Below are positions 39,960 through 58,195 of a stretch of DNA of 64,000 nucleotides, piece by piece. The position numbers were made by a program, and so were the translations under genes. Below the pieces are notes generated by a model. It made no database searches. It was given only the letters and a program-made list of their open reading frames with translations, and was not told where the DNA came from. Origin of the DNA: Enterobacteria phage Kha5h; the sequence record NC_054905.1, one strand, 5' to 3'. How positions within the stretch are numbered: position 1 is the stretch's first letter; every line of letters begins with the position of its first letter.

Positions 39960-40924
39960 TGTATTCTTTAGAGGAATTTAATAATCAAGCAATAAACGCA
40001 GATTTCCAACGTAATAATATGTTTAGCTGCGTTTTTGCAACAACTCCATCAACTAAAAGCTCTTCGTTGATAAGTTCAATTAGCAACTTTTCTTATAATA
40101 ACTTGGGCCTAAATTCAGATTGGTTAGGATTAACTCAAGGTGATATTAATCAGGGAATTACTACGCTAATTACAGCTGGCACACAAAAACTGATAAGAAA
40201 ATCAGGGGTTAGTAAATATCTTATTGGTGCCATGAGTCAACGTACAGTTCAAAGTTTATTAGGCTCATTTACAGTTGGTACATATTTAATTGACTTCTTT
40301 AACATGGCATATAACTCATCTGGATTGATGATATATTCTGTAAAAATGCCAGAGAATAGATTATCCTATGAAACTGACTGGAACTATAATTCTCCTAATA
40401 TTCGTATAACTGGGAGAGAATTAGACCCTTTGGTTATTTCATTTAGAATGGATTCAGAAGCTTGTAACTATCGTGCAATGCAAGACTGGGTTAACTCCGT
40501 TCAAGACCCAGTAACTGGATTACGTGCTTTGCCACAAGATGTCGAGGCAGATATTCAGGTTAATCTTCATTCTCGCAATGGATTACCTCATACTGCGGTG
40601 ATGTTCACTGGATGCATTCCAGTGTCAGTGAGCGCTCCTGAGTTATCATATGATGGAGATAACCAAATAACTACATTTGATGTTACTTTTGCGTATAGAG
40701 TCATGCAGGCTGGAGCGGTTGATAGACAAGCTGCGCTTGAATGGCTTGAATCTGCTGCTATAAATGGTATTCAAAGCGTTCTCGGAAATAGTGGAGGTGT
40801 TACTGGACTATCTAATTCGCTTTCACGACTTAGTAGATTAGGGGGAACTGCTGGAAGCATTTCAAACATTAATACTATGACGGGAATTGTCAATTCGCAA
40901 AGTAAAATATTAGGAGCAATATAA
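39959..40924 (+). CDS. 54: Baseplate tail-tube initiator gp54
   Basis: 321 aa, synteny; followed by bidirectional terminator. Confidence 0.85.
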   Translation: MYSLEEFNNQAINADFQRNNMFSCVFATTPSTKSSSLISSISNFSYNNLGLNSDWLGLTQGDINQGITTLITAGTQKLIRKSGVSKYLIGAMSQRTVQSLLGSFTVGTYLIDFFNMAYNSSGLMIYSVKMPENRLSYETDWNYNSPNIRITGRELDPLVISFRMDSEACNYRAMQDWVNSVQDPVTGLRALPQDVEADIQVNLHSRNGLPHTAVMFTGCIPVSVSAPELSYDGDNQITTFDVTFAYRVMQAGAVDRQAALEWLESAAINGIQSVLGNSGGVTGLSNSLSRLSRLGGTAGSISNINTMTGIVNSQSKILGAI

Positions 40925-40927
40925 CAA

Positions 40928-40959
40928 TGGGGACCTTTTGGTCCCCATATTTTTATTTA
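40928..40959. terminator. Bidirectional terminator between gene 54 and the alt.-3-like ORF
   Basis: TGGGGACC TTTT GGTCCCCA followed by TATTTTTATTT. Confidence 0.8.
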
Positions 40960-41243
40960 CGGAATGAAATAAAAGCAGCAACTGAAGCAACTAAACTGTC
41001 TTCAATATAAACTTCAATTTTTACCGGAGCTTCTGACTCAAATTTACCTGTTACTACACCTTGGAAAATGCTTTCAGTCTGTTCTGGCTTTGAAAAATTT
41101 TCAGAAGGAAAAATTCCGAACTTTTTATCTGTTCCAAAAATTTTGATAAATTCATCATAAACTGCTTCATTAAAAGCGTTATCAGCAGGAATAACGCCTT
41201 CAACTACAAGTTCTTGACCTAAAAAGCGTAAAGAAGATTTCAT
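40953..41243 (-). CDS. Hypothetical protein (alt.-3-like)
   Basis: 96 aa ORF preceded on the - strand by the 54-bp early promoter cassette with GAGGA RBS. Confidence 0.65.
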   Translation of the reverse strand: MKSSLRFLGQELVVEGVIPADNAFNEAVYDEFIKIFGTDKKFGIFPSENFSKPEQTESIFQGVVTGKFESEAPVKIEVYIEDSLVASVAAFISFRK

Positions 41244-41250
41244 TTTGTGT

Positions 41251-41304
41251 TCCTCATGTTATGTCAGTAAGATTACTATAACACAACACGAGGGACTTGT
41301 AAAC
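41251..41304 (-). promoter_or_regulatory. Early promoter plus leader cassette, copy 1
   Basis: Reverse strand GTTTAC, 17-18 nt, TATAGT, then GAGGA RBS; 54-bp element repeated at 56551-56604. Confidence 0.65.
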
Positions 41305-43361
41305 TACATCTTGAACTTTTTAGACATTCCGTTGATGTTAACCAAAGAAGCCAAGATTTGAGAAACTTCGTTTTCCTCTTCTTTTGATTCTTCTACAAGG
41401 AATTGATTAAACCCAGCCATTGGACGAACTTCACCAGTTTCCATTAGATGATCGCCATCATATACCGATTCTTCTAATTGTTCAGAAGGAGGAACGATTG
41501 TGCCTTCGATTAGATACTTGTTATAAGCAGTTTCTTTCATCATGTACGTGCTTACTTTATTAATCTTCAACAAAATTCCACGCGGTAGAATAACTTCAGC
41601 TTCTGATGGAAATCCTGATAAATGACCTGGAACGATAACTTTGATTCGTTCAGCCCCTTTAATTACCATACCTACGCTAGTTTCAGCATCTTCATTAGCA
41701 TATGTAGAATGACTACCCATATGCATCAAATCTTCTGCATCAACGGAACCTTCTCCTTCACCAGAAAATACTGCGCCGGAATCATCTAGAGCCATATAGT
41801 TTTTACCATGCTCACCGAAGATATTTGGTTTAAGCGATGTGGATACGAAGTTCTTGAAATAGAACATTTTATTTTCAATATTATGACGTAAAGTTTTAAA
41901 GGTAACTTCTTGTCCGCGATAAAGCGTAGTTCCTGGAGGAAGAACTGAACCTTTAGCAAATGCAGAATCCAACGTCTCGATGTGCTTAATAGCTCGTTCC
42001 ATATATTCTTCACGGGTAGAATCTGGTTTACCCAAAAGGAACGAGTTCATTTCAACATATGAATCTGCACAATAATCTTCAATTACATCAGATTCAGCTT
42101 GAGTTAATCCTTTTGGAGTTACTTCAGTGCTTGCGTATTCATATGCCTGGGCAGCAGATTCATTAATCAATTTATAAATGCCATTCATTACAAATTGAAT
42201 AATAGCTGTCTTTTCATCTGGCGTAGCTTTAGAACCTTTAACTAAATCATTGATAATTTTCTTAATAACATCAAAGCTATTAGAAATATTAATATCAGCA
42301 AGATCGCTTAAAATTTTATCAGTTTTATAATCAAAGAATTCTTTATTCTTTAAATATTCTTGAGAACCTTGATATGTTATATCGCTCTGCAACTTGATAG
42401 ATGGATCACGTAAACGTGCATGGGCCAATGCAATATGATTTCGGAAGCTTTCTAGTTCATAATCGTTAGATTTAAAACTAGAAGCACTTCTCATACCACC
42501 GATAGCTCCTTTGCCGAAGTTGGAACCAATCTGAATAACGCCAGAGTTCATTGGTCCTTCTGCTTTATATACCGGAACTTTAGATTCAAACTCTTGATAT
42601 TTCTTAGCGGCGAAGCTATCGCCCTGGAGTGAGGCATCGACAGTAGAATATTGAGCTTGCGCTGCTAATCGACGACTAATTTTAGTTTTCTGAATAACAG
42701 CTTGATCCGTGCGCTTATCATTTTCTAAAGCAATAGAAGCAGCAACAGCAACAGCTTTAGGAACAGCATTACCTGTTTTAACATCTACATAAACATCACC
42801 AACCTTTGATTCAACTTTTGTGAATAACTCAGTTGAAATAGGAGGTACACCTGGAATGTCTTCTAAATTGGCATTTTTACGGTAAACCATAATATATGCG
42901 TACTTTTTATCATAGTCCCAGATTTCCTTTAAAAGAACATATCGACCTGCTCCTTTAGTACGTACTAAACGGTCAGCAATAACTTGCATTTGACGAGCTG
43001 CGCCATTTGTTTTACTCTTTAGTACGCGGAATAGGCATGCGTCGATTTTATACTGCTTCATTGTTTGAAGAGCAGTATCAAAAACAGCATTAATGACGCC
43101 AATTGGATTTCCACCCAAGTTTCTAAGCTTAACCAGCGATAATTTCTCGTTGACACCTATCATTACGATATGCATCATTTTATCGCCTGGCTTAACGTTT
43201 TTATTCGTATCACCACCAGAGGTGTATGTACAAAATCTAAATCCAGGAAGCACGCTTTCTTCGCCGGCTTGAATAGCAAAAATTTGTGGTATTTTATGCT
43301 TAGGATTTAAGTTAACAACCGGCGCCGAAGCGCCGTCAAATAATTCTGTAATAAGTTCCAT
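41304..43361 (-). CDS. Alt-family ADP-ribosyltransferase paralog
   Basis: 685 aa; N-terminus MELITELFD closely similar to the adjacent Alt ORF; C-terminal ART motifs YRGQ, FVSTSL, EAEVILPRG. Confidence 0.8.
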   Translation of the reverse strand: MELITELFDGASAPVVNLNPKHKIPQIFAIQAGEESVLPGFRFCTYTSGGDTNKNVKPGDKMMHIVMIGVNEKLSLVKLRNLGGNPIGVINAVFDTALQTMKQYKIDACLFRVLKSKTNGAARQMQVIADRLVRTKGAGRYVLLKEIWDYDKKYAYIMVYRKNANLEDIPGVPPISTELFTKVESKVGDVYVDVKTGNAVPKAVAVAASIALENDKRTDQAVIQKTKISRRLAAQAQYSTVDASLQGDSFAAKKYQEFESKVPVYKAEGPMNSGVIQIGSNFGKGAIGGMRSASSFKSNDYELESFRNHIALAHARLRDPSIKLQSDITYQGSQEYLKNKEFFDYKTDKILSDLADINISNSFDVIKKIINDLVKGSKATPDEKTAIIQFVMNGIYKLINESAAQAYEYASTEVTPKGLTQAESDVIEDYCADSYVEMNSFLLGKPDSTREEYMERAIKHIETLDSAFAKGSVLPPGTTLYRGQEVTFKTLRHNIENKMFYFKNFVSTSLKPNIFGEHGKNYMALDDSGAVFSGEGEGSVDAEDLMHMGSHSTYANEDAETSVGMVIKGAERIKVIVPGHLSGFPSEAEVILPRGILLKINKVSTYMMKETAYNKYLIEGTIVPPSEQLEESVYDGDHLMETGEVRPMAGFNQFLVEESKEEENEVSQILASLVNINGMSKKFKM

Positions 43362-43364
43362 GAT

Positions 43365-45461
43365 TTATCCTTGAACGAACTTGTAAGGCATGTTTGTAAT
43401 ATCTATGCAAGACGCAATAATTCCAAGAGATGATTCGACTTTCTGTTTAACATTTGATGAAACAAATGATGCAAAATCAACTCTGTCTTCTATTTCAATA
43501 TCACCTGTCATTGCAACTACTTCGCCGGTTTCCATTAAACGGTCTCCGTCATAGATTACCGATTCGGTGAGCTCTTCCGTGGTCATAACTTCAGCTTGAA
43601 TGAGTTTTGTATTATTAGATGTTGTTCCGTCATTATTAGAAGCATCAGTTATTTTATTAACTTTGACCATCAATCCACGCGGTAGAATAACTTCAGCTTC
43701 TGTTGCTATTCCGAGACTTCCTGGATATACAACATTAACTTTATGAGCTCCATCAATTGCCCATCCTATTTGAACTTTAACGTATTCAGGATTTTCTTTA
43801 TACGCTCTTATTTCGTTTGGATTAATAGTTATTCCTTCTTCATTTTTATCAACTGTTAATTCATTGCGAGCTTCTGGTTCTAAAAGACCAATACCAGCAT
43901 GTGTAATTCCAAAACGTCCAAAAATGATAGGAGTTAAAGAAGTAGATACAAAATTTCTGAAGTAGAACACTTTATTTTTAACTAACGCTTCATATATAGG
44001 AGCAGTCATACTTTGAGCACGATAAACTGTAATGCCTTCTGGTATACGGTCACCATTTTCAAAAGCTGAATCTAAGTTATTTATAGCAGATTCAATTTCT
44101 TTTTCACTCATTACATCATATCGTTCTGGATTGTAACGACCTAAAAGAAGATTATTGATGTCAGTATATCCTGAACCGCAATATTCTCTAATGCCACGCT
44201 TTTGTGATGGAGTATATTTAGAACCATCGCGGGCAATAGTAATATCAATCATTGGACCAGCACCAATTCCAGAAAAACTGTAAATCATTCGTTTGAGGAA
44301 TTTAGTTTTTGCTGCGTTCCAGAAATTTTTAGTTATTTCTTCCCAGACTTCATCTGGTTGTCCTTTACGATTTTTATTATGATTAGCAAGCCATTTATCT
44401 TTATAATCTTCAAAGAATTGATTTACAGCTGCTGCGTATTTCTCTAAACATTTTATTGAAGTAGTTGGTTCATTTTTAATTGCATTAAAAATTACTTCTT
44501 TAATTTTTTCTGAAACTTCACCGACTTGACTCATTGGAAAGAATTTATAATCATAGTGAAGTTCATCTGCCGTTCCTTCAGCAATAATTTTTGCTGCCTT
44601 TGTTTTAGAAGCTAATGAATTAATTCCAATTTTCATTTCTTCTGCTTCGGGAATTAAAGGTGCAGTAGCTGGTTTATTAAAATTAGCTGCTGTAGATTCA
44701 TACTTCTGGAATAATTCACTTTCAAATCTAGAAGATTCCAATGACTGACTTTGTGCAATTGCTCTACGTGAAATTTTAACTTTAACGATTACAGCTTGGT
44801 CAGAACGTTTATCATTTTCTTGCGCAATAGATGCTGCAATTGCCTCATTTTTAGTTACTTGAGCTCCAGTATCTTTATTGATATAAACATCGCCGACTTT
44901 CGATTCAACTTTAGTAAAGAGCTCGGTACTAATTTCCGGAACTCCTGGAATGTCTTCTAGTGATACATTTTTGCGATGTATAAGAATATATGCATACTTT
45001 TTATCATAATCCCAGAGTTCCTTAAGAAGGACGTATCTGCCACCTGAACGACTACGGATAAGTCTATCAGCAATAACTTGAATTTGTCGAGCTTGACCAG
45101 CGGTTTTAGACTTAAGAATACGGAGCATACAGGCATCAATTTTATACTGACGCATTGTTTGCATTGCAACAGTAAAAACTGAATTGATATAATTAATTGG
45201 GCTTGGACCAAGACCTTTTAATTTAGCAATTGAACCTTTAGCAGTTAATGTAAAAGGAACAATATGCATCATTTTATCGCCCATCTTTAAATCGCGATTA
45301 GTATCACCTCCAGATGTATAGGTACATAAACGAAAGCCTGGCTGTTCAATTGCATCATCAACGTGAACTGAAAAAATTTGCGGTATTTTCTTCTTTGGAT
45401 TTAAGTTTGTAATCGGAAGAGTAGTATCTTCGTCAAATAATTCTGTAATAAGTTCCATCAT
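43365..45461 (-). CDS. alt: Alt ADP-ribosyltransferase (head-packaged), start possibly at second Met
   Basis: 698 aa; ART R-S-E motifs YRAQ, FVSTSL, EAEVILPRG; both an upstream hairpin and TATAAATA on the - strand. Confidence 0.85.
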   Translation of the reverse strand: MMELITELFDEDTTLPITNLNPKKKIPQIFSVHVDDAIEQPGFRLCTYTSGGDTNRDLKMGDKMMHIVPFTLTAKGSIAKLKGLGPSPINYINSVFTVAMQTMRQYKIDACMLRILKSKTAGQARQIQVIADRLIRSRSGGRYVLLKELWDYDKKYAYILIHRKNVSLEDIPGVPEISTELFTKVESKVGDVYINKDTGAQVTKNEAIAASIAQENDKRSDQAVIVKVKISRRAIAQSQSLESSRFESELFQKYESTAANFNKPATAPLIPEAEEMKIGINSLASKTKAAKIIAEGTADELHYDYKFFPMSQVGEVSEKIKEVIFNAIKNEPTTSIKCLEKYAAAVNQFFEDYKDKWLANHNKNRKGQPDEVWEEITKNFWNAAKTKFLKRMIYSFSGIGAGPMIDITIARDGSKYTPSQKRGIREYCGSGYTDINNLLLGRYNPERYDVMSEKEIESAINNLDSAFENGDRIPEGITVYRAQSMTAPIYEALVKNKVFYFRNFVSTSLTPIIFGRFGITHAGIGLLEPEARNELTVDKNEEGITINPNEIRAYKENPEYVKVQIGWAIDGAHKVNVVYPGSLGIATEAEVILPRGLMVKVNKITDASNNDGTTSNNTKLIQAEVMTTEELTESVIYDGDRLMETGEVVAMTGDIEIEDRVDFASFVSSNVKQKVESSLGIIASCIDITNMPYKFVQG

Positions 45462-45483
45462 AGCCTCTCTAGTGTTTATTCTA

Positions 45484-45511
45484 TTTATAAAATTAAAGGC
45501 CCGAAGGCCTT
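45484..45511 (-). promoter_or_regulatory. Late promoter TATAAATA and upstream hairpin before alt
   Basis: Reverse strand TATAAATA about 25 nt upstream of the alt ATG, preceded by AGGCC TTCG GGCCT hairpin. Confidence 0.55.
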
Positions 45512-45699
45512 TAGTAATCTAGTGGTAAGAGAGTACGATATATTTCAAACTTTGGTCCTTTTTCATAGGCATCAAATGTTTCTGTAAATTTATTATAAGC
45601 GTATGCATCTACAAATTCGAGAATGACTTGTGATACAGAAGTAGAAACATCTCCACCTTCTTTTTGAGCAATGACAATTGTTTCTAAGTAAGCTTTCAT
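45511..45699 (-). CDS. Hypothetical small protein
   Basis: 62 aa ORF between ligase and alt; start overlaps ligase stop. Confidence 0.55.
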   Translation of the reverse strand: MKAYLETIVIAQKEGGDVSTSVSQVILEFVDAYAYNKFTETFDAYEKGPKFEIYRTLLPLDY

Positions 45700-47159
45700 A
45701 GACCAGTTACCTCATGAAAATCACCAAATACATCCTCGAATGTATTAGCTTTAGTTTTATCTTCACGTAAACGAATCGCAATCGGAAGAAATAATTTAAC
45801 GTAATCAGTGCGGCCATCAGATTTTAACCAACCGTTGCATTCGCACTCTAGAATTTTTCCAATATAATAATTTTGGTTTTCCATAATGCGAGTACGGTCA
45901 AGCTCATGTGATTTTACGCCGGCTTTATCTTTTAAGCCTGAACCAGCATTTACTTTAATTTTTCCACATTCTGATTCAAGAATAAATCCACCCGCTTTAG
46001 TAGGGTCTTTACGGTGAGGATAAATTCCTACAATTTTTAAATCAACATCAATTACTTCTTTAAATTTATAAAGATTTTTTGAACGAGCATTTTCCCATAA
46101 TCCATCGATATTTTTGAGAATAATACCTTCAAGACCTTGGTCAATATACTTTTTGTAAATTACCTTAGCTTCATCTAGGTTATTTACTACTTGGTTTTCA
46201 ATTAAAATTACTTTATCATAGCCTGATGTCATTTGTTCTAGTTTAGAAAAACGTACATCATATTTTAAACGAAACGCTGGAAGACCATATATTTCTACTA
46301 ATGGAACATAGTCCCAGACCTGAAACTTCATGCATTGAGCTTCTTTTTCAGAAATGGTTCCTTTTAAGGATTTATTGGCGATTCCATTAGAAGTAGTACG
46401 AGATTCCGCTACTTCGGCGAATTCTTTAGCTTTACTAATTTTAGGATAAGCATCAAAAAGAAAATCTAGGCCTTCTGGTTCCTTTTTAACTTGCTCATGG
46501 TATACCAATTCGCCATCAATTAACACACCTTCTGGATGAATCTGGCGAGCTTCTGCAGTCATTTTGATTAACTCTTCCTTGAGAAGATCTAATCCTAGAT
46601 ATTCATTACCAGCTCGTGATAAAAGACGAACATCATCTAATTCATCACCTCTGACTTCAGCAAAGCACCGAGCTCCATCAGCTTTTAATTGGGCAAAGGC
46701 TGGAAATTTGATATTCTTATTAATGCCTTTTTCATCATAAGAACTTGCCAGCATTTGAGGTTGTTCAGGAATTAAACCTGGCCAAACTTTGTTTGCAATA
46801 GATACTGATGCACCACATTCAAGGTCTCGCATCATCACCCGACGCAAAACTTCAACATCATCTTTTTTACCGTCAGCAATATATCCAGTTAATTCCTCAA
46901 TTGCCGCATTTCCTGTCAATTTCCGAGTAGCTAACGTGAATTCAATGAAGTCAAGCATATCGGTAAGAGTCAACATTCCAAAACTCTGGGTAGCAATACC
47001 CGGTTTAGGCCATTTCTTGATATAATACTGTAACCCACGAGAATAAGTCAGACGATATACTCGTTTAAGCAATTCATTATCTTTATTCTTTTCAAGAATT
47101 GCTTGCTTCTGCTTAGTTGAACCAATAGATGCTATTTCGTTCAGAATTTTAAGAATCAT
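45696..47159 (-). CDS. 30: ATP-dependent DNA ligase gp30
   Basis: 487 aa, T4 ligase length; adenylation motif KADGARC. Confidence 0.92.
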   Translation of the reverse strand: MILKILNEIASIGSTKQKQAILEKNKDNELLKRVYRLTYSRGLQYYIKKWPKPGIATQSFGMLTLTDMLDFIEFTLATRKLTGNAAIEELTGYIADGKKDDVEVLRRVMMRDLECGASVSIANKVWPGLIPEQPQMLASSYDEKGINKNIKFPAFAQLKADGARCFAEVRGDELDDVRLLSRAGNEYLGLDLLKEELIKMTAEARQIHPEGVLIDGELVYHEQVKKEPEGLDFLFDAYPKISKAKEFAEVAESRTTSNGIANKSLKGTISEKEAQCMKFQVWDYVPLVEIYGLPAFRLKYDVRFSKLEQMTSGYDKVILIENQVVNNLDEAKVIYKKYIDQGLEGIILKNIDGLWENARSKNLYKFKEVIDVDLKIVGIYPHRKDPTKAGGFILESECGKIKVNAGSGLKDKAGVKSHELDRTRIMENQNYYIGKILECECNGWLKSDGRTDYVKLFLPIAIRLREDKTKANTFEDVFGDFHEVTGL

Positions 47160-47425
47160 TGTTCATCCTTTAGAGTTTGGTTTACAGCTCTATTATAAAT
47201 CAATTCATCATTAAGCTCAGTCAAAGACCTGTGGTACGTGGTTCTAACTTTATTTCCTTGCATCCAGTGCTTGACGTAAATGAAACCTTGCTCTACACAT
47301 TTTTTAAAAATTCGTTCGTCTTTTTGAGCTCGGAATTCTGGATTGCATCTAAAAAATTGATTTACGTGACCGTAATCACGTGTAGTATTACCTTCATTTT
47401 CATAAATAGTGTGAACGACAAACAT
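47156..47425 (-). CDS. Hypothetical protein (30.1-like)
   Basis: 89 aa ORF, translationally coupled to ligase. Confidence 0.6.
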   Translation of the reverse strand: MFVVHTIYENEGNTTRDYGHVNQFFRCNPEFRAQKDERIFKKCVEQGFIYVKHWMQGNKVRTTYHRSLTELNDELIYNRAVNQTLKDEQ

Positions 47426-48261
47426 TAGAATGCTCCTTGGAAAATATTATCACCACTAGTAGGTCTATTATACAAATACTCTATGCCACCGGGTTTAATA
47501 TAGTTCCATGTCTGAAACGGATGCGTCTGATATGGATGATATGGATTATAAGGATTAAACCCAGGAGTTCTCCAGGTAGTGTTCCAAGGAAAAGAATCGT
47601 TTTTGATCATCTTCTCAATTACATCTTTTATAGCTTTTTCACGATCAAAACTTTCTTTAATTTCCTTCGATGGAAAAAGCTTATTCTCGACATCATTCCA
47701 TGTATAAACTCGCTGTGCAGTTTTTGGAATACTGTCACGCTCTCCTCGAGCCATCCAATAAACAGGAACATTTAATATTTCACTCGCGTGATCGCAGTGG
47801 TGAGCGAGATCGTCAATATAACAAATTACGTTATATTTTTCTTTTGCTTTTTTGAACAGCTCTTCTTTTGAAGAATCATGACTACACATCAGTACTTCTG
47901 AGAAGGCACCAGGAAAAAGAGCATTCAAATTAAATTGACGATTCAGCAGAGCGTCAATAGAATCACCCAATGCTGTAACAGCTACAAAATTATAATCTTC
48001 TTTTAATTTGTTAATTACACACAGGGCATCTTTATATGGAGACAAGTAACGAATAAAATCTGAACGATTATATTTTTCAATTAACTTGACACCAAGTTCT
48101 TCATCACAGTTAAAGAGTTTACCTGGAGAAATAAATTTTTCGTCTTGAATCATTTTTAAAATATGTTCTAATGGAAGATTATATTTTTGGGCAAAATAAG
48201 GAAGGCCTGATTGCCAGCTTAAACATACTCCATCAATATCAGTTAAAATAGTAGGCTTCAT
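47425..48261 (-). CDS. HAD-superfamily-like hydrolase (30.2-like)
   Basis: 278 aa; N-terminal motif ILTDIDGV and a later YIDD motif resemble HAD phosphatase motifs I and IV. Confidence 0.6.
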   Translation of the reverse strand: MKPTILTDIDGVCLSWQSGLPYFAQKYNLPLEHILKMIQDEKFISPGKLFNCDEELGVKLIEKYNRSDFIRYLSPYKDALCVINKLKEDYNFVAVTALGDSIDALLNRQFNLNALFPGAFSEVLMCSHDSSKEELFKKAKEKYNVICYIDDLAHHCDHASEILNVPVYWMARGERDSIPKTAQRVYTWNDVENKLFPSKEIKESFDREKAIKDVIEKMIKNDSFPWNTTWRTPGFNPYNPYHPYQTHPFQTWNYIKPGGIEYLYNRPTSGDNIFQGAF

Positions 48262-48716
48262 AGAGAGTCTCTTAATAGGTTTAACACATCAATAAATTCA
48301 GCTTCGGTTAGTATTGTATCATCTTTTGTTAGACCACTAGCCATGCTGTGCTTCAAAACTTTTCCTTTCGAGGCTTGTAATGCATCACGAAAGCCCTTGT
48401 TTTGAATCGCTGCTTCAAAATATGCATTTGTGTATAATTCTTTCCACGCCGGGGAGTATCTTGAAAACGGAACTCCAAGCCAGAAGAGGGTCCCACGGTC
48501 CTGAGCTCTAGCATAAGACCTTCCAGCTTGTTGAGCGGCAAGCCCGGATAACCCAAATATACGACGTTGTTGTTCAACGTTTTTCACCTTGCATCCTTGG
48601 AGGAATCCTTCAAGACCTCCAAATTGAATACCATCCATGACGAAAGGCCATTGGGCGAAATTACTTAATGCACATGATGGCCACCTAAAATTGCTTCTAA
48701 TCTCTAACTCAGACAT
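48258..48716 (-). CDS. NADAR (YbiA-like) domain protein (30.3-like)
   Basis: Track ORF starts at an upstream non-ATG codon; ATG at 48716 gives 152 aa; motif LSNFAQWPFVMDG matches the FSNFAxWPxxxDG core of YbiA/NADAR proteins. Confidence 0.65.
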   Translation of the reverse strand: MSELEIRSNFRWPSCALSNFAQWPFVMDGIQFGGLEGFLQGCKVKNVEQQRRIFGLSGLAAQQAGRSYARAQDRGTLFWLGVPFSRYSPAWKELYTNAYFEAAIQNKGFRDALQASKGKVLKHSMASGLTKDDTILTEAEFIDVLNLLRDSL

Positions 48717-48915
48717 TTTCAATGCTTATAATCTCAACATCAGCCCAATGACCATAGCAAGGAAGACGAAATTCAACTGGCCAGTTAGGATCCTTTTCTA
48801 ATATAATAGACTTAACTTGTGGTTCTTCATGTTCATCAGTATATGGATTTTTATCTGTTACTTTATATGTGACCTTAATGTACTGAATTCCAAAAATCTT
48901 ATTAATTATATTCAT
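48709..48915 (-). CDS. Hypothetical small protein
   Basis: 68 aa ORF in the tightly packed - strand cluster. Confidence 0.5.
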   Translation of the reverse strand: MNIINKIFGIQYIKVTYKVTDKNPYTDEHEEPQVKSIILEKDPNWPVEFRLPCYGHWADVEIISIENV

Positions 48916-49109
48916 ACTAATTCCTTTAATCCGTAAATAGGAGATAATTCATCACCCATGCGAAGGTCTTCATTTCCATCTACCCAGGAAACAATATAAG
49001 CCTCTTTTATTTGAATACCACTCCATTTAAATGGAGGTAGAACCTTAGAAATTAATCCAGGTATACCAACTCCCTTTAATTCAACAGTTTGACCTAAAAA
49101 GAATTTCAT
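48912..49109 (-). CDS. Hypothetical small protein
   Basis: 65 aa ORF, start overlaps upstream stop. Confidence 0.5.
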   Translation of the reverse strand: MKFFLGQTVELKGVGIPGLISKVLPPFKWSGIQIKEAYIVSWVDGNEDLRMGDELSPIYGLKELV

Positions 49110-49396
49110 TAGAACCTCATCTGAAAACCGTGCGATTTAACATTACCGCCACCAATATCAGAGATATTAATTTCGCGCGCAATTGAAGGGTCAATGTCAA
49201 TTTCACGATTGAGTTTAGTGATAGCTAAAGTATCGCGCCCATTTACAGTACGAAACTCTAAAGGACAAACCACATCAACGTAGTTTTTAATCGATTCACT
49301 GGTAGGCTGCAAATGAGCAGGAAGGTCTTTAGGCGCCTTTGAGAAAACAACTTCGCAGAAGTTTTTACGGGTATCAAAATAAGTAGTCATAAACAT
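49109..49396 (-). CDS. Hypothetical protein; start trimmed to the ATG after a GAGGA RBS
   Basis: Track ORF of 107 aa runs through an upstream hairpin; Met 13 is preceded by GAGGAAA, giving 96 aa. Confidence 0.55.
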   Translation of the reverse strand: MFMTTYFDTRKNFCEVVFSKAPKDLPAHLQPTSESIKNYVDVVCPLEFRTVNGRDTLAITKLNREIDIDPSIAREINISDIGGGNVKSHGFQMRF

Positions 49397-49437
49397 AATA
49401 TTTTCCTCAGTAAGGGGCCGAAGCCCCCTCATTTATT

Positions 49438-49803
49438 TTAAATATCAAATTCATTAAGAACTACATCAAAGATTGCTTCAAGATGCTCAGGTTTAGCTCT
49501 GTTACTCAGAATATGACGAATCCAAGTTTTAACCAGAAGCTTGCGATTAGCACCATTCCAGCAAGGATGAGCCCCTAAATCGCGTTGACGGAAATCATCA
49601 TCCAGAGCAATTTTGAAGTTGGAACCTTCCATTGTGATTGAAACCGTGATACCGTTTTCAAATCGCATATAAACGTAATTAGGAGTCATATACTGCTCAA
49701 TTTCGCATACTGATCCATTTTGATGTTTCCAAAGGCAAATAGTATCAATAGAACCTGCAATACCATTAGAAACATATTTACGTTCAAAGTTGATGTAGTT
49801 CAT
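49438..49803 (-). CDS. Hypothetical protein
   Basis: 121 aa ORF preceded by a hairpin-promoter cassette and GGAGAA RBS. Confidence 0.6.
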   Translation of the reverse strand: MNYINFERKYVSNGIAGSIDTICLWKHQNGSVCEIEQYMTPNYVYMRFENGITVSITMEGSNFKIALDDDFRQRDLGAHPCWNGANRKLLVKTWIRHILSNRAKPEHLEAIFDVVLNEFDI

Positions 49804-49830
49804 TTTTATTCTCCAAGATGTTTAATTGCG

Positions 49831-49872
49831 GTACAGGTATATAATATCATATCCTGTACCAAAGTAAACAAT
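49831..49872 (-). promoter_or_regulatory. Hairpin-promoter cassette (early promoter with -10 inside a stem-loop)
   Basis: Reverse strand GTTTAC then inverted repeat GGTACAGG ... CCTGTACC enclosing TATTAT, followed by GGAGAA RBS. Confidence 0.55.
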
Positions 49873-50204
49873 TATTTTACTACTTTCCAGTGCTTCATGT
49901 CAAGTTTACCGACTTTTTTCATCTTCTCAATTAAGCGTTCTGCACGTTGGCGAGCTGTAACATAATGCCATTCACCTAATTCATTTTGTTCAATTTTTCC
50001 AACGATTACTGTATTCAATTCATAAATCCAACCAGTAAAGAAATTATGAACTTGAATTGTAAAGGTGAAATCTGTTCCCATACCTTCTGTTGTTTCTACT
50101 TCAATAATATCACCTTCAACTGCCATTAAGAACCACATAGTTTCATCATATTTACCATTGAAGCATTTAGTTTTAACTGCAGCGTTCAGATTAATCGTTT
50201 TCAT
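49872..50204 (-). CDS. Hypothetical protein
   Basis: 110 aa ORF preceded by GTTTAC...TAGTAT early-type promoter and AAGGAG RBS. Confidence 0.6.
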   Translation of the reverse strand: MKTINLNAAVKTKCFNGKYDETMWFLMAVEGDIIEVETTEGMGTDFTFTIQVHNFFTGWIYELNTVIVGKIEQNELGEWHYVTARQRAERLIEKMKKVGKLDMKHWKVVK

Positions 50205-50224
50205 TTTATTCTCCTTTGTTTGTG

Positions 50225-50265
50225 TAAGATAATACTATCACAAAGGAGCTATACTGTAAACAACT
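50225..50265 (-). promoter_or_regulatory. Early promoter with RBS-containing stem-loop
   Basis: Reverse strand GTTTAC, 17-18 nt, TAGTAT; flanking inverted repeat CTCCTTTGTG / CAAAGGAG covers the AAGGAG RBS. Confidence 0.5.
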
Positions 50266-50288
50266 TTATGCAATCTTTGGAAAATAAA

Positions 50289-50312
50289 AAAGGACTCCCG
50301 AAGGAGTCCTCA
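50289..50312 (-). terminator. Rho-independent terminator after the 30.9-like ORF
   Basis: Reverse strand AGGACTCC TTCG GGAGTCCT followed by TTTTTTATTTT. Confidence 0.8.
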
Positions 50313-50314
50313 AC

Positions 50315-50533
50315 TTATGCTTTCTGCTTACCAAAACGAGAAGCATCATCTCGAAGAACCGCACGTGCTCGGCGCATGATCTTCTCAACAGTTTGATTGA
50401 TACGAGAGTTCGACCCACGCTTGTAGCCAGCGCGTTTAGAATCACCAACTTTCTTTTCAACTGCTTTCTTTGCTTTAACTTGTTTTGCCATTATAAATTC
50501 TCTTTTAAATGAAAATGCAGGACTTATTGGCAT
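50315..50533 (-). CDS. Small lysine/arginine-rich basic protein (30.9-like); start ambiguous, 72 or 58 aa
   Basis: ORF with two candidate starts; strongly basic composition; followed by UUCG terminator. Confidence 0.55.
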   Translation of the reverse strand: MPISPAFSFKREFIMAKQVKAKKAVEKKVGDSKRAGYKRGSNSRINQTVEKIMRRARAVLRDDASRFGKQKA

Positions 50534-50736
50534 TGCCTGCGCAAGCCCTCAAGGGGAACATAGGTTTTTGGATATTTAACGACCAGGATAACCATAAACC
50601 CGTCATCATTCACATTCAAGAGGTACACCGTAAAACTGCCGGGGTCTTAAAACTATAATGATTCGCAAATCATTAATCAGACAGTTCGACGGCTCCTCGA
50701 TTTTAGCTCGCACTAAGGCAGTGAATCTCCAATAAA

Positions 50737-50985
50737 TTACTTCAGTGTTACCACAAAGTGACGAACTGCTTTTCGTGCAGCAGAAGCCAGAGGCTTAGCA
50801 TATTTAAGTTCATCTTTTTCCTGAAGCTCAGCAGCTAATGCAGTTTGAGCAGGATTCAGATGTTTGAAATAACGCAGGATTTCAAGAGCTTCGGCTTCAA
50901 CATCAATAGATGCGCCATAGTTTTCGTGACCATTATTCCATGCGTTTCGTTGCAGTTCAAGAGCGTGTTGTAATTGTTTAATCAT
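50737..50985 (-). CDS. rIII: Lysis inhibition accessory protein rIII
   Basis: 82 aa, T4 RIII length; position between gene 31 and the 30.x cluster. Confidence 0.8.
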   Translation of the reverse strand: MIKQLQHALELQRNAWNNGHENYGASIDVEAEALEILRYFKHLNPAQTALAAELQEKDELKYAKPLASAARKAVRHFVVTLK

Positions 50986-51124
50986 TTAAAAATTCTCGTT
51001 AGAGATTAAAACTCGGTAGTCACGTTCTTCTGAATTTCATCTTCTTTCGACAGATCTCTCAGTTGTAGACTACCACATAGAATTGTTCGGTTAACTTATT
51101 ATTCCGACACCCAATTCATATTAT

Positions 51125-51132
51125 TATTTATA
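51125..51132 (-). promoter_or_regulatory. TATAAATA late-promoter motif upstream of rIII
   Basis: Reverse-strand TATAAATA immediately after the gene 31 stop. Confidence 0.45.
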
Positions 51133-51468
51133 TCACTTATAAAGACACGGAATAGCTTTATAGTGACAGGTAACGAATTTTTGCTTAATTTCTTTTGGCT
51201 GCTTAAGACCCAGAGCTACAAAAGGATGTGGAACGTTTCGAATTTGACCAACTGGAAGAGAAGTCAAATCACCAACTTCGCAGAAACCTTCAGGAACATC
51301 AGGACCGACAGAGTGAACTACACACAGTTCAGGAACTTCACCTTGAACACGTTTACCGATGATAAGTCCTGATTCTGTAACTTCTTCATCACCGGCTTGT
51401 GCAGGTTCAGAAACTAAAATAACATATTCACCGACAGCACGAATTGGTAGCTGTTGTACTTCAGACAT
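51133..51468 (-). CDS. 31: Co-chaperonin gp31 (GroES analogue)
   Basis: 111 aa, T4 gp31 length; position before rIII. Confidence 0.88.
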
Positions 51469-51524
51469 CGTTTTTCCTTTTTGTTAACAGATGAATTAAT
51501 AATAACAAATAATTCTTAAAGCAT

Positions 51525-51833
51525 TTATTTACCAATAAATTGGAGTAAATGCTCAACTTTCATACCATTAACAGAAATCAATTTGTCAATAGAAAAACCT
51601 CGCCATGCACCAAGCTCAACATCAAATACTGGAATCATGTCAGTAGATTCTTTCCGAGTAGATTCAGTCAATTTACCAGTTTGCATGGTTGGCATAAAGT
51701 CTGCATCACGAGTACCTTTCATAGTACGAATAGTACCATCAGACTTTTCAAAAACTACGTTTGAAACACCCATGGACAATTTAGTTTTCAAAATTTCACG
51801 AATTGCTACTTTCTGCTCAGTTGTCAGTTTCAT
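51525..51833 (-). CDS. Hypothetical protein (31.1-like)
   Basis: 102 aa ORF. Confidence 0.6.
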   Translation of the reverse strand: MKLTTEQKVAIREILKTKLSMGVSNVVFEKSDGTIRTMKGTRDADFMPTMQTGKLTESTRKESTDMIPVFDVELGAWRGFSIDKLISVNGMKVEHLLQFIGK

Positions 51834-52070
51834 TTATTTACCTATTACAGTTTTAATATGAGTTGTTCCACGTTCTTTAAGGGTGGAAAGTAATTTTTGG
51901 CATTTTTCTAAATCAGATTTCCAACTATATGGTCTATCAATACTAGTCCAATCAGTTTTATAATACTGTTTCCATTTAGAGAAAAAATATTTCTTATACT
52001 CTACAGCAAATGAGATGTTCTCATTAGAATAAGAACTAATTGCTGTGAGCTTTACCAAACGAAATTTCAT
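51834..52070 (-). CDS. Hypothetical protein (31.2-like)
   Basis: 78 aa ORF contiguous with the cd stop. Confidence 0.55.
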   Translation of the reverse strand: MKFRLVKLTAISSYSNENISFAVEYKKYFFSKWKQYYKTDWTSIDRPYSWKSDLEKCQKLLSTLKERGTTHIKTVIGK

Positions 52071-52651
52071 TATTCACCACAGAATTCGTTGATATTTTCC
52101 CAGTTTAACTTATTCAAGTTTTTCTTAGGAACATTAAACACTTCAATACCTGCATTTCGCAGAATATCATCCCAACCAGGTTTATTTTTATCGTATGTTT
52201 CACAATAAACTAGCTTTTTAATACCAGATTGAGCTATCGCTTTTGCGCAATCCGGACAAGGAGAAAGTGTTACATACATAGTAGCACCTTCAATAGAAGA
52301 ACCATTTCGTGCAGCAAACAAAATTGCATTTAGTTCAGCATGAATTTCATTTTTAGATGACCATTCCGAGTGAGCACTACGATGTTCTTTCGCCAAGACA
52401 AAACGATCAGTTGAACCAAACGATACACATTCAGGCTTATGACCTTGAATGATAGTATGTTTAGGTTTATTCAACAACCAACCTTGCTCAGCAGCATAAT
52501 CACAGCAGTTCACACCACCAGCAGGTGAACCATTATATCCGGTAGAAATAATACGTCCATTCTTTTCAATTACTGCTCCTACTTTCCAGGAGCAACATTT
52601 TGATTCTTGTGATACTAAATATGCAATTTGAAGTACTGTACTCGCTTTCAT
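52070..52651 (-). CDS. cd: dCMP deaminase
   Basis: 193 aa; zinc-binding deaminase motifs HAE and PCPDC. Confidence 0.9.
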   Translation of the reverse strand: MKASTVLQIAYLVSQESKCCSWKVGAVIEKNGRIISTGYNGSPAGGVNCCDYAAEQGWLLNKPKHTIIQGHKPECVSFGSTDRFVLAKEHRSAHSEWSSKNEIHAELNAILFAARNGSSIEGATMYVTLSPCPDCAKAIAQSGIKKLVYCETYDKNKPGWDDILRNAGIEVFNVPKKNLNKLNWENINEFCGE

Positions 52652-53219: not shown

Positions 53220-53242
53220 TTTGTTTTCCTCATTTGTTTTGG

Positions 53243-53277: not shown

Positions 53278-53281
53278 ACTG

Positions 53282-53760: not shown

Positions 53761-55175
<1,415 letters not shown>

Positions 55176-55699: not shown

Positions 55700-56049
55700 T
55701 TAGAAAGGTCCTGGATGTCTTCTGCGAACTTGTTGAAGGAGTTGTTGATTTGTTTTTCAACCAATCCTGGCTTATGAGCCACCACATCCGCCTTCTTTGC
55801 GTCTTTGCGCAGTTTTTCATTTTCACGCTCAATAGCAGCAATTGCCTCACGATTTTTATTATTCATCGCATCAATATAATTATACTGAATTCGCAAATTA
55901 TTTAATGCTAAAGCGTTTTCATTGGCCGTTTTTGTAATTTCTACAACAGACGTTTCTAATCTTTCAATTTTATTTTTTAAAATTAAAGAAGTTCCGCCCA
56001 ATGCAATTACAATTAATAGCAAGCCTGCTGTCGTATTACTTAATTGCAT
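55696..56049 (-). CDS. Inner-membrane spanin (i-spanin)
   Basis: 117 aa; N-terminal transmembrane helix followed by charged coiled-coil-like periplasmic domain. Confidence 0.7.
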   Translation of the reverse strand: MQLSNTTAGLLLIVIALGGTSLILKNKIERLETSVVEITKTANENALALNNLRIQYNYIDAMNNKNREAIAAIERENEKLRKDAKKADVVAHKPGLVEKQINNSFNKFAEDIQDLSK

Positions 56050-56546
56050 AAAGTTTTAATAACCTCTATAATATCGTCTTGAGAAAGACCGTTAATTAAA
56101 ATATGATGTTCAGCCGGAGATTTAGAAATTTTAAAGCATGCCTCAACATCTTCTGCCATATCCGATGCGCTACGATTTGGATTACTAATTCCAAGACGAT
56201 GTTTTCCCGTTAAAGGATTAACGATGATATAGCATTTACAGTTGTTAATATGAACATTAGGTTGAGTCTGATTAATGAACACATCACAATCATATTTCGC
56301 AAGCTGATTTTCTAAAAAGACTTTCATCTCCTCAACCGCATCAGGAAGCATATCACGGGCTTGCTCAAGACGACGATTTCGGTATTCTTTAATGGTCGTT
56401 TTCCGCTTGACTTGCTTAGCTAAATCTTTCTTAAGATCGGTGATATATCCAACTCGACGATTTCCTTTGAATACAGAAATCCCATCTGTAGTATCACCGT
56501 ATGCTTCAACGACCATTTCAGTAGTAATAAGCTGCAAATCCATCAT
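56040..56546 (-). CDS. alc: Probable Alc (host transcription unfolding/termination) protein; start may be the second Met
   Basis: 168 aa ORF (T4 Alc is 167 aa) between the spanin pair and rnlA; preceded by the 54-bp early promoter cassette. Confidence 0.6.
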   Translation of the reverse strand: MMDLQLITTEMVVEAYGDTTDGISVFKGNRRVGYITDLKKDLAKQVKRKTTIKEYRNRRLEQARDMLPDAVEEMKVFLENQLAKYDCDVFINQTQPNVHINNCKCYIIVNPLTGKHRLGISNPNRSASDMAEDVEACFKISKSPAEHHILINGLSQDDIIEVIKTLCN

Positions 56547-56550: not shown

Positions 56551-56604
56551 TCCTCATGTTATGTCAGTAAGACTACTATAACACAACACGAGGGACTTGT
56601 AAAC
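56551..56604 (-). promoter_or_regulatory. Early promoter plus leader cassette, copy 2
   Basis: 53 of 54 nt identical to the copy at 41251-41304; lies between the rnlA stop and the alc start. Confidence 0.65.

Positions 56605-56607: not shown

Positions 56608-58195
<1,588 letters not shown>

What the first reader, a model, noticed from the sequence alone, without database searches (positions are those of the whole stretch)
41251..41304. Duplicated 54-bp early promoter and leader cassette at two distant loci
The 54-nt string TCCTCATGTTATGTCAGTAAGATTACTATAACACAACACGAGGGACTTGTAAAC at 41251-41304 recurs at 56551-56604 with a single mismatch. On the - strand it reads GTTTAC, spacer, TATAGT, then a GAGGA Shine-Dalgarno. 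It precedes the alt.-3-like ORF in one place and the alc-like ORF in the other. A 7-bp stem (CCUCGUG pairing with CAUGAGG) would bury the RBS in read-through transcripts but not in transcripts started at the internal -10. Identity extending beyond the promoter hexamers suggests cassette exchange by recombination rather than convergence.
Basis: seen in the sequence. Interest (0 to 1): 0.6.

Follow-up and report, generated by a model that had tools for sequence, protein, structure and literature searches.

The report
Duplicated early promoter with RBS-hiding hairpin
A 54-bp unit in a T4-like phage combines a strong early promoter with a hairpin that should hide the next gene's ribosome-binding site on transcripts coming from upstream, and it sits in near-identical copies in front of two unrelated early genes (alc and alt.-3), apparently copied between them by recombination.

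Summary
The 54-mer occurs at 41251-41304 and 56551-56604 (53/54 identical, none in shuffles), and the flanks are unrelated. The window is a Tequatrovirus, and nearly every genome of the genus, T4 included, carries two copies.

On the minus strand each copy fills an intergenic gap: -35 GTTTAC, a 17-bp spacer, TGn-TATAGT, a predicted +1, then SD GAGGA and the ATG of alt.-3 or alc. The stem is 14+4 bp, not 7. Its 5' arm lies in the promoter spacer and its 3' arm covers the SD. Predicted RBS opening costs 16-18 kcal/mol in read-through RNA and about 4 in promoter-initiated RNA.

At alc this layout recurs in eight T4-like genera with different, covarying arms. At alt.-3 it occurs only in Tequatrovirus, so the alt.-3 copy is probably derived from alc. 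Variants shared between the two loci indicate ongoing gene conversion.

It is an early-promoter variant of the known T4 e/soc/49/I-TevI gate, packaged as a PeSL-like cassette. No experiment tests the mechanism directly. Interest is moderate.

The parts
41251..41304 (-). Cassette copy A (alt.-3 locus): the complete 54-bp promoter/hairpin/SD unit
   Evidence: repeat; promoter-like site TTTACA-17-TATAGT with TG; fold -25.3 kcal/mol in context, z -5.1
41299..41304 (-). Copy A -35 hexamer GTTTAC; the upstream Alt-paralog stop codon TAG overlaps its first G
41275..41280 (-). Copy A -10 hexamer TATAGT, preceded by TGt (extended -10). It lies in the upper part of the hairpin (last pair of the lower stem, the 2-nt bulge and the apical helix)
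41280..41293 (-). Copy A 5' arm (CCUCGUGUUGUGUU, contains the anti-SD CCUC). It lies in the promoter spacer and the first base of the -10, so it is transcribed only from upstream promoters
41252..41265 (-). Copy A 3' arm (GACAUAACAUGAGG), covering the Shine-Dalgarno GAGG(A) at 41251-41255
41268..41268 (-). Copy A predicted transcription start (7th nt after the -10). Inferred, not mapped
   Evidence: Inference from sigma-70 geometry; used
40953..41243 (-). alt.-3-like ORF (96 aa, Pfam DUF5498), the gene served by copy A
   Evidence: T4 ortholog
41304..43361 (-). Alt-type ADP-ribosyltransferase paralog (685 aa) directly upstream; a source of read-through transcripts
45482..45489 (-). T4-type late promoter TATAAATA upstream of the first alt gene (about 43365-45458); a likely origin of late read-through RNA into alt.-3
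56551..56604 (-). Cassette copy B (alc locus): the complete 54-bp unit, 53/54 identical to copy A
   Evidence: (fold -27.3 kcal/mol in context, z -4.0)
56580..56593 (-). Copy B 5' arm (anti-SD) in the promoter spacer
56575..56580 (-). Copy B -10 hexamer TATAGT with extended -10 TG
56552..56565 (-). Copy B 3' arm covering the SD GAGGA (56551-56555)
56040..56546 (-). alc ORF (Pfam ALC, 4e-91). The first ATG is at 56546; the second ATG at 56543 is the start annotated in T4
56608..57732 (-). rnlA (T4 RNA ligase 1) directly upstream. Its stop codon TAA lies 3 nt before the -35. A source of read-through transcripts

Best explanation
Each 54-bp copy is a compact intergenic regulatory cassette that does two jobs.

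As DNA it is a strong T4-type early (host sigma-70) promoter. Its transcripts start about 22-25 nt before the start codon and carry an unstructured A/C-rich leader with an exposed Shine-Dalgarno.

As RNA made from any promoter further upstream (the rnlA operon, or the alt genes with their late promoter) the whole cassette is transcribed and folds into an 18-bp hairpin. An anti-SD arm, encoded in the promoter's -35/-10 spacer, pairs with the SD arm. The downstream gene (alc or alt.-3) is therefore translated essentially only from its own early-promoter transcripts, and its synthesis stops when early promoters shut off even though read-through RNA continues.

This gate is ancestral at alc. In the Tequatrovirus ancestor the alc cassette replaced the ordinary, ungated promoter of alt.-3. 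Since then the two copies have kept exchanging sequence by gene conversion.

Shown here: the repeat, the promoter motifs, the predicted thermodynamics, cross-genus covariation and variant sharing. Inferred: the TSS position, folding in vivo, translational silencing, the temporal role and the direction of transfer.
For: Promoter: TTTACA-N17-TATAGT with TG, 10/12 matches, at both sites. T4 alc and alt.-3 are early RNA and early protein, whereas the upstream rnlA is early RNA/late protein and Alt protein rises late.

Hairpin: MFE -25.3 and -27.3 kcal/mol, z -5.1 and -4.0. RNA starting at the predicted +1 is unstructured. The sense strand folds at -22.0 against -12.8 for the antisense because of three G.U pairs, which points to RNA rather than DNA.

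Gate: RBS opening cost is 17.6 (alc) and 15.7 (alt.-3) kcal/mol in read-through RNA against 4.0 and 4.4 in own-promoter RNA. These rank 1st and 4th of 70 gene starts in the window, where the median is 5.2. No terminator-like site lies between the upstream genes and the cassettes. A late promoter sits upstream of alt.

Conservation: the same layout at alc appears in Karam-, Marfa-, Gelderland-, Dhaka-, Winkler- and Bragavirus and in a Klebsiella phage, with different arm sequences. Their z-scores are -3.1 to -7.1 and the opening-cost difference is 9-17 kcal/mol. Own-genus arms pair at -17.6 against -8.9 kcal/mol for cross-genus combinations, and the true assignment is the best of 40,320 permutations.

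alt.-3 promoters in six other genera lack the gate, with a difference of 0.2-3.1 kcal/mol and z about 0.

Exchange: identity stops at the cassette borders. Five of six alc variant types also occur at alt.-3, P = 1.7e-6. The G29A+G32A haplotype is present at all copies in G28 and at alt.-3 in ZN18. One full compensatory change occurs (C15-G50 to U.G to U-A), and most stem variants keep pairing.
Against: There is no experimental 5'-end, structure-probing or translation data for these sites in anything I could read, so the +1 is assumed from promoter geometry.

Within Tequatrovirus, covariation is not statistically significant (74/500 shuffles do as well). Three natural variants break a pair (G29A, G40T, C12A).

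Alignment-based RNAalifold across genera recovers only an 8-bp consensus stem, because the stems are out of register.

No canonical late promoter was found upstream of rnlA. For alc, therefore, the 'late silencing' logic rests on early and middle read-through only.

Sequence identity cannot tell which locus was the donor. The direction rests on parsimony of the architecture.

Mosigvirus, Gaprivervirus and a Providencia phage lack the alc gate, so it is dispensable.

Shared variants could in part reflect parallel selection, for example G16A strengthening the stem and G29A improving the -10.
Confidence: 0.65

Rival explanations
1. PeSL-type attenuator or terminator, or an mRNA-end hairpin. The stem-loop stops or attenuates transcription coming from the upstream gene, or protects the 3' end of the rnlA and alt mRNAs, as proposed for promoter-early stem-loops. 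SD pairing would then be incidental.
For: PeSLs in RB49/phi1 have stem-loops between -35 and -10 or overlapping the -10, and one of them terminated transcription in a reporter. Two other early promoters in this window (53279-53226 and 49870-49817) have hairpins flanking the -10 that do not touch the SD, so such hairpins have some use other than hiding an SD.
Against: No U-tract follows either hairpin, and the terminator scan finds nothing there. The stems are A/U- and G.U-rich rather than G/C-rich. At alc the 3' arm coincides with the SD in eight genera although the arm sequences differ, which a pure terminator would not require.
Confidence: 0.15
2. Translational coupling device. The hairpin keeps the downstream RBS closed on polycistronic RNA until a ribosome terminating at the adjacent upstream stop codon melts it, tying alc to rnlA translation and alt.-3 to alt translation.
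For: The upstream stop codons lie 0-3 nt before the -35 in both copies and in most other genera. This is the classic geometry for coupling.
Against: The stem base starts 11-16 nt after the stop codon. That is at or beyond what a terminating ribosome covers (established ribosome footprint; inference). In T4 the upstream proteins accumulate late and the downstream ones early, so they are not co-expressed.
Confidence: 0.1
3. DNA-level element. The inverted repeat acts as a cruciform, a protein-binding palindrome or a recombination hotspot, and RNA folding is irrelevant.
For: PeSL authors speculated that the stem-loop may be a recombination target. The two copies do exchange sequence.
Against: Three of the 14 lower-stem pairs are G.U, which are mismatches in DNA and on the other strand. 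The sense RNA folds at -22.0 against -12.8 kcal/mol for the antisense. Natural changes go G.U to A-U and C-G to U.G to U-A, which only make sense for sense-strand RNA.
Confidence: 0.04
4. One ancient copy event followed by purifying selection only. The two copies stay alike because every position is constrained, with no ongoing gene conversion.
For: The cassette packs -35, -10, +1, SD and both stem arms into 54 nt, and 44 of 54 columns are invariant among 12 distinct variants. Orthologous flanks are themselves 97-98% identical across the genus, so little divergence is expected anyway.
Against: The same derived substitutions, including unpaired loop and bulge positions (T27C, G32A, T33A) and a linked pair (G29A+G32A), turn up at both loci. 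The overlap has P = 1.7e-6, or 2e-4 counting transitions only.
Confidence: 0.2

Closest known systems
T4 translational gating hairpins at genes e (lysozyme), soc, 49 and I-TevI (also Aeh1 mobE and T4 segB)
   Same: The SD and/or AUG is sequestered in a helix on transcripts from upstream promoters. A promoter embedded in the region encoding the 5' strand gives shorter transcripts that lack that strand and are translated (review PMC3014915, section 29). The predicted energetics here are of the same kind.
   Different: In all the described cases the embedded promoter is a late promoter (TATAAATA), and the gate keeps a late gene silent early. Here the embedded promoter is an early sigma-70 promoter, the anti-SD arm sits inside the -35/-10 spacer, and the logic is inverted: an early gene is silent on later or longer transcripts. 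alc, alt.-3 and gp30.8 are not among the cases listed in that review.
PeSLs (promoter-early stem-loops) of T4-type phages (Arbiol et al. 2010, PMC2839356; Comeau et al. 2014, PMC4122927)
   Same: [quoted passage not shown] Both are repeated within a genome and are substrates for homologous exchange.
   Different: PeSLs are many-copy, mostly in hyperplastic regions next to ORFans, usually G/C-rich, and are interpreted as terminators or attenuators. The papers do not mention translation or SD sequestration. Here there are just two 98%-identical copies 15.3 kb apart, in direct orientation around essential genes. The stem is A/U-rich with no U-tract, and its 3' arm is the SD. I could not see the PST/T4 PeSL figure, so I cannot say whether these two sites are listed there.
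Promoter-coupled terminators in bacteria (Fletcher et al., bioRxiv 10.64898/2026.08.19.745784)
   Same: One DNA stretch serves both the end of one transcription unit and the promoter of the next, and a stem-loop overlaps promoter elements.
   Different: There the terminator stem doubles as the -35, and the T-tract precedes a -10. Here the stem spans from the spacer to the SD, there is no T-tract, and the predicted target is translation rather than termination.

Membership tests
T4-type early (sigma-70) promoter | -35 GTTTAC/TTTACA, 17 +/- 1 bp spacer, -10 TAnnnT | tested here: met
   TTTACA-N17-TATAGT, 10/12 matches, at both copies
T4-type early (sigma-70) promoter | Extended -10 TGn element | tested here: met
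   TGt immediately precedes TATAGT in both copies
T4-type early (sigma-70) promoter | A/T-rich UP-like region upstream of the -35 | tested here: inconclusive
   A-runs are present upstream (aaaaag at alt.-3; aaaaattataaaaaattt at alc), but these lie in coding sequence and were not scored against a model
T4-type early (sigma-70) promoter | Immediate-early activity and a mapped start site | not testable with these tools
   Indirect only: T4 alc and alt.-3 are classed early RNA/early protein (PMC9697503 supplements). No TSS data were found
Promoter-embedded RBS-sequestering hairpin (T4 e/soc/49/I-TevI type) | SD and/or AUG paired in upstream-initiated RNA | tested here: met
   P(SD unpaired) 0.00-0.01 and opening cost 15.7-17.6 kcal/mol. 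Computational only
Promoter-embedded RBS-sequestering hairpin (T4 e/soc/49/I-TevI type) | The 5' strand of the helix lies upstream of the internal start site, so the short transcript lacks it | tested here: met
   The 5' arm is cassette positions 12-25 and the predicted +1 is position 37. The own-promoter RNA opening cost is 4.0-4.4 kcal/mol. The +1 is predicted, not mapped
Promoter-embedded RBS-sequestering hairpin (T4 e/soc/49/I-TevI type) | The internal promoter is a late promoter (TATAAATA) | tested here: not met
   The internal promoter is an early sigma-70 type, and there is no TATAAATA in the cassette
Promoter-embedded RBS-sequestering hairpin (T4 e/soc/49/I-TevI type) | Demonstrated translational repression of long transcripts | not testable with these tools
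   Needs reporter or toeprint assays
PeSL (promoter-early stem-loop cassette) | An intergenic unit running from the upstream stop, through the early promoter, stem-loop and SD, to the ATG | tested here: met
   compared with the definition
PeSL (promoter-early stem-loop cassette) | Many similar copies clustered in hyperplastic regions next to variable ORFs | tested here: not met
   Two copies per genome in 498 records. The flanking genes are conserved across genera
PeSL (promoter-early stem-loop cassette) | The stem-loop acts as a transcription terminator or attenuator | tested here: inconclusive
   No U-tract and no terminator-like call. Activity was not measurable here
PeSL (promoter-early stem-loop cassette) | Copies recombine with each other | tested here: met
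   Variants and a linked haplotype are shared between loci. This is evidence for conversion, not for mini-circles or indels
Intrinsic (Rho-independent) terminator | G/C-rich stem followed by a U-run | tested here: not met
   The sequences after the stem are AACACAAAAUG and ACUUUAUGAUG
Any Rfam RNA family | Covariance-model match | tested here: not met
   No hit at either site at E <= 1 in 40000-58000

The most novel reading that the evidence does not exclude
T4-like phages have a conserved and so far undescribed class of 'promoter-of-origin' translational gates at immediate-early genes. The anti-Shine-Dalgarno is written into the -35/-10 spacer of a sigma-70 promoter, so only transcripts born at that promoter are translated. 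The gate is also a portable 54-bp module that moves between loci by gene conversion and rewires the translational control of an unrelated gene: alc to alt.-3 in Tequatrovirus, and possibly the reverse replacement (an ungated alt.-3-type cassette at alc) in Mosigvirus.
Probability: 0.45. Interest if true: 0.6.

Novelty: new variant of a known kind. Interest (0 to 1): 0.45.

Why it matters
T4 early protein synthesis collapses a few minutes after infection. The known causes are early-promoter shut-off, whose mechanism is not fully understood, and RegB cleavage (PMC3014915).

A hairpin that makes alc, alt.-3 and probably gp30.8 untranslatable on any transcript not started at their own early promoter would be a third, purely cis-acting layer. 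It would be the mirror image of the classic lysozyme/soc/49 gate.

It would also explain how strongly read-through operons can carry early genes without expressing them late. It gives a clean natural example of a regulatory module, rather than a gene, being copied between loci and then homogenised. And it offers a compact 54-bp part for synthetic circuits in which translation depends on which promoter made the RNA.

Because the sites are in T4 itself, every prediction can be tested directly with existing tools.

Tried and rejected
- Rfam at E <= 1 over 40000-58000 found nothing at the sites.
- Generic early-promoter consensus: rejected. The best other site in the window shares 29/54 positions, and there are only two places per genome in 498 relatives.
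- My first guess, that alt.-3 was the donor because outgroup alt.-3 leaders share ACATGAGGA and TGTGTTATA, was dropped. alc outgroups showed the same generic motifs, and the long hairpin proved to be an alc-locus trait.
- Sequence clustering of 18 cassettes cannot assign the direction of transfer, because background identity is 65-75%.
- Within-genus covariation count: 98% of cells paired but not significant.
- MAFFT plus RNAalifold across genera recovered only part of the stem because of register shifts. I replaced it with an alignment-free arm-swap test.
- The third copy in phage G28 is a 351-bp tandem duplication (rnlA end + cassette + alc N-terminus). It is not a cassette-bounded event and so is not evidence for PeSL-style shuffling.
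- The IMG/VR scan gave only 8 Tequatrovirus copies. The other 8 hits were an unrelated promoter in another phage group.
- A late promoter upstream of rnlA was not found.
- Literature: Miller et al. 2003 (PMC150520) is not held. The 2014 PeSL paper's supplements are not held and figures are not held by the paper tool, so I could not see its PST PeSL figure. No T4 TSS-mapping data set was found. Prior notice of this pair in older T4 literature therefore cannot be excluded.

Full report
OBSERVATION. The 54-nt string is at 41251-41304 and again at 56551-56604 with one mismatch. There are no matches in 100 dinucleotide-preserving shuffles and no further copy with 3 or fewer mismatches in the window. 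Identity ends exactly at the two ends of the 54-mer, and the sequences on either side are unrelated.

On the minus strand each copy fills an intergenic gap. At the first site it lies between an Alt-type ADP-ribosyltransferase paralog, whose stop codon TAG overlaps the first G of GTTTAC, and a 96-aa DUF5498 (alt.-3) ORF. At the second it lies between rnlA, whose stop is 3 nt before GTTTAC, and alc.

WHAT GENOME, AND HOW COMMON. The window is a Tequatrovirus, 97-98% identical to RB27, RB32, Sf25 and others. A blastn search with the 54-mer finds 995 places in 498 phage records, all Tequatrovirus-like and at 92-100% identity. That is two per genome, T4 itself included. The duplication is therefore fixed in the genus and is not a peculiarity of this isolate.

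Among 38 promoter-like sites in the window the next best shares 29/54 positions.

ANATOMY. Numbering the sense (minus) strand 1-54:
- G1-C6 is the -35 GTTTAC (TTTACA with a 17-bp spacer).
- T25-T30 is the -10 TATAGT, preceded by TGt.
- The predicted +1 is about A37.
- G50-A54 is the SD GAGGA.

C12-U25 pairs with G40-G53: 14 bp, with G.U pairs at 16-49, 21-44 and 25-40. After a 2-nt bulge, A28-A31 pairs with U36-U39 around a 4-nt loop. In context the folds are -25.3 and -27.3 kcal/mol (z -5.1 and -4.0), while RNAs starting near the +1 are unstructured.

The sense strand folds at -22.0 kcal/mol and the antisense at -12.8, so if the structure matters it matters as sense RNA. There is no U-run after the stem, and the terminator scan is negative at both sites. 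Rfam has nothing there.

PREDICTED EFFECT ON TRANSLATION. The ensemble free-energy cost of opening positions -14..+3 around the start codon was compared for two RNAs. One carries 110 nt of upstream sequence (read-through) and the other starts at the predicted +1.
- alc: 17.6 kcal/mol read-through against 4.0 own-promoter.
- alt.-3: 15.7 kcal/mol read-through against 4.4 own-promoter.

Across 70 putative gene starts in the window the median read-through cost is 5.2 and the 90th percentile is 10.5. The two cassettes rank 1st and 4th.

Read-through is plausible. No terminator-like site separates the upstream genes from the cassettes. A T4 late promoter TATAAATA lies at 45489-45482 just upstream of the first alt gene, and a MotA-box-like middle promoter lies upstream of rnlA.

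In published T4 time-course data alc and alt.-3 are early RNA/early protein. rnlA is early RNA/late protein, and Alt protein accumulates late (PMC9697503 supplements). This fits insulation of the downstream genes from the upstream expression programme, but it does not prove it.

COMPARATIVE EVIDENCE. I fetched the same two intergenic regions from other T4-like genera. An early promoter sits at both positions almost everywhere, but the structures differ by locus.

At alc, seven other lineages have a long hairpin with the same layout: Karamvirus, Marfavirus, Gelderlandvirus, Dhakavirus, Winklervirus, Bragavirus and a Klebsiella phage. The 5' arm starts 1-3 nt after GTTTACA in the spacer, the loop contains the -10 and +1, and the 3' arm ends on the SD. 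The arm sequences differ, for example UCCUCAUCAG/CUGAUGAGGA, CCUCGUUUGUU/AACAAACGAGG and AACCUCUCAUUUUU/GAAAAUGAGAGGUU. For these cassettes:
- z-scores are -3.1 to -7.1.
- RBS opening costs are 10.8-18.2 kcal/mol read-through against 0.8-4.0 own-promoter.

In an alignment-free test, each genus's spacer segment pairs with its own SD segment at -17.6 kcal/mol on average. Cross-genus combinations average -8.9 +/- 2.9, and the true assignment is the single best of 40,320 permutations. MAFFT plus RNAalifold recovers only an 8-bp consensus stem, with compensatory changes in 5 of its 8 pairs, because the stems are out of register.

Mosigvirus, a Providencia phage, Gaprivervirus, Nanhuvirus and an Acinetobacter phage lack the gate at alc.

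At alt.-3, all six other genera have only a short hairpin inside the spacer and a free SD. Their opening-cost difference is 0.2-3.1 kcal/mol and z ranges from +0.4 to -1.4.

The most parsimonious reading is that the gate is ancestral at alc and that the Tequatrovirus alt.-3 copy is a secondary acquisition. Sequence identity alone cannot confirm the direction, because all these cassettes share 65-75% identity through promoter and SD constraints.

EXCHANGE BETWEEN THE COPIES. In 12 distinct Tequatrovirus variants, 44 of 54 columns are invariant. Of the six substitution types seen at alc, five (G16A, T27C, G29A, G32A, T33A) are also seen at alt.-3 in the same or other genomes. The hypergeometric P is 1.7e-6, or 2e-4 with transitions only. 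The linked pair G29A+G32A is present in all three copies of phage G28 and at alt.-3 in ZN18. Several shared changes are at unpaired positions, so parallel selection on the stem cannot explain them all.

This supports recurrent gene conversion over 54 bp of homology. A reciprocal crossover would delete 15.3 kb that includes genes such as DNA ligase, which are essential in T4 (established knowledge), so only non-crossover products should survive (inference).

Stem variants mostly keep pairing: G.U to A-U, U.G to U-A, and C-G to U.G to U-A. Three break a pair, and the within-genus covariation statistic is not significant.

COMPARISON WITH WHAT IS KNOWN. The mechanism is that of the classic T4 cases e, soc, 49 and I-TevI. 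There a helix sequesters the RBS on long transcripts, and a promoter within the region encoding the 5' strand gives translatable short transcripts (PMC3014915). In all of those the internal promoter is late and the gene is kept silent early. Here the internal promoter is early, the anti-SD sits in the promoter spacer, and the logic is inverted. alc, alt.-3 and gp30.8 are not listed in that review.

The packaging is that of a PeSL: upstream stop, early promoter, stem-loop over the promoter, SD and ATG, repeated and recombinogenic (PMC2839356 and PMC4122927). PeSLs, however, are many-copy and mostly sit in hyperplastic regions. They are interpreted as terminators, and the 2010 PeSL paper never mentions translation or SD sequestration.

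Promoter-coupled terminators (bioRxiv 10.64898/2026.08.19.745784) have a different geometry.

I could not read Miller et al. 2003 or see the PST PeSL figure, so earlier notice of this promoter pair cannot be excluded.

VERDICT.

The best explanation (confidence about 0.65) is an early promoter fused to a promoter-of-origin translational gate. The gate is ancestral at alc, was copied to alt.-3 in the Tequatrovirus ancestor, and is kept homogeneous by gene conversion.

The rivals are less likely but not excluded without experiments: an attenuator or 3'-end hairpin, a translational-coupling device, a DNA-level element, or selection without conversion.

Novelty: a new variant of a known kind. Interest is moderate (0.45). 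The finding sits in the best-studied phage and is directly testable, but it extends known principles rather than overturning them.

Noticed in passing
window 50205-50261 (-), upstream of the gp30.8 ORF (start 50204): A third early-promoter cassette with the same layout but an unrelated sequence. It reads GTTTACA, then the spacer arm CUCCUUUGU, the -10 TAGTAT, then ACAAAGGAG, which is the SD. RBS opening cost is 11.7 kcal/mol (6th of 70) and fold z is -2.2. Pfam assigns the ORF to Phage_30_8.
   Followed up: partly
window 53226-53279 (-) and 49817-49870 (-): Two more early promoters have strong hairpins whose arms flank the -10 (GGUAGAG...CUCUACC, z -3.6; GGUACAGG...CCUGUACC, z -4.1) but do not reach the SD. 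These are PeSL-like, and their function is unexplained by the RBS-gate idea.
   Followed up: partly
L029 4172-4240 (RB69 alc) and L008 (PhAPEC2 alc), compared with alt.-3 cassettes: In Mosigvirus the alc locus carries an ungated cassette with a short spacer hairpin (CACC-AAGGAA-GGUG) and the leader AUCAACAACAYGAGGA. It resembles alt.-3-type cassettes more than alc-type ones (mean identity 0.72 against 0.62). This may be a replacement in the opposite direction to the one in Tequatrovirus.
   Followed up: partly
L004, L006, L029, L030, L031, L032 (alt.-3 promoters of six genera); also window 57765-57779 (-) upstream of rnlA: A recurrent small hairpin lies inside the promoter spacer with a purine-rich loop, for example GCAC-AAGGAA-GUGC, ACAUCC-AUGGAA-GGAUGU and CCACA-UGGAG-UGUGG. 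The last of these sits in a MotA-box-like promoter (TGCTTCCA at 57777-57784, TACTAT at 57759-57764). Its meaning is unknown.
   Followed up: no
L027 4135-4540 (phage G28); L003 157-390 (PSD2001); L038 1-153 (VR7): Partial duplicates of the alc N-terminus sit just upstream of full-length alc in a Tequatrovirus (a 351-bp tandem duplication that includes the cassette) and in two Gapriverviruses. Phage Shinka also lists two 'transcription terminator' CDS there.
   Followed up: partly
window 58195-58260 (-), start of denA: A terminator-like hairpin GGGCCGCAAGGCCC followed by UUUUAUU lies between the SD (AAGGAG) and the AUG of denA. RBS opening cost is 16.5 kcal/mol, 2nd of 70. It could be a terminator for nrdB transcripts that also acts as a split SD-AUG spacer like those of T4 genes 38 and 25.
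   Followed up: no
window 34634 (-) / 34685 (+): Two divergent genes about 50 bp apart have a late-promoter-like TATAAATA between them. Their SD regions are each other's reverse complement (GCUCCUUU...AAAGGAGC), so either long transcript would pair its own SD (opening costs 10.8 and 10.4 kcal/mol).
   Followed up: no
window 41304-43361 and about 43365-45458 (-): Two full-length tandem alt paralogs, with repeats at 2097-nt spacing (families D2, D6 and D12). T4 itself retains only fragments of the second one (alt.-1 and alt.-2), while Dhakavirus WG01 has three.
   Followed up: no
window 40927-40948: A perfect 9-bp G/C-rich bidirectional terminator hairpin lies between the convergent alt.-3 and gene 54.
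   Followed up: no
L010-L013, L015, L016, L019, L022 (IMG/VR contigs): An unrelated phage group has a conserved early-type promoter GTTTACAAGT...AAAAGGATTATAGT...ACGGAGGA upstream of a gene whose product starts MTRGTVQ. It matched the degenerate search pattern by its hexamers only.
   Followed up: no
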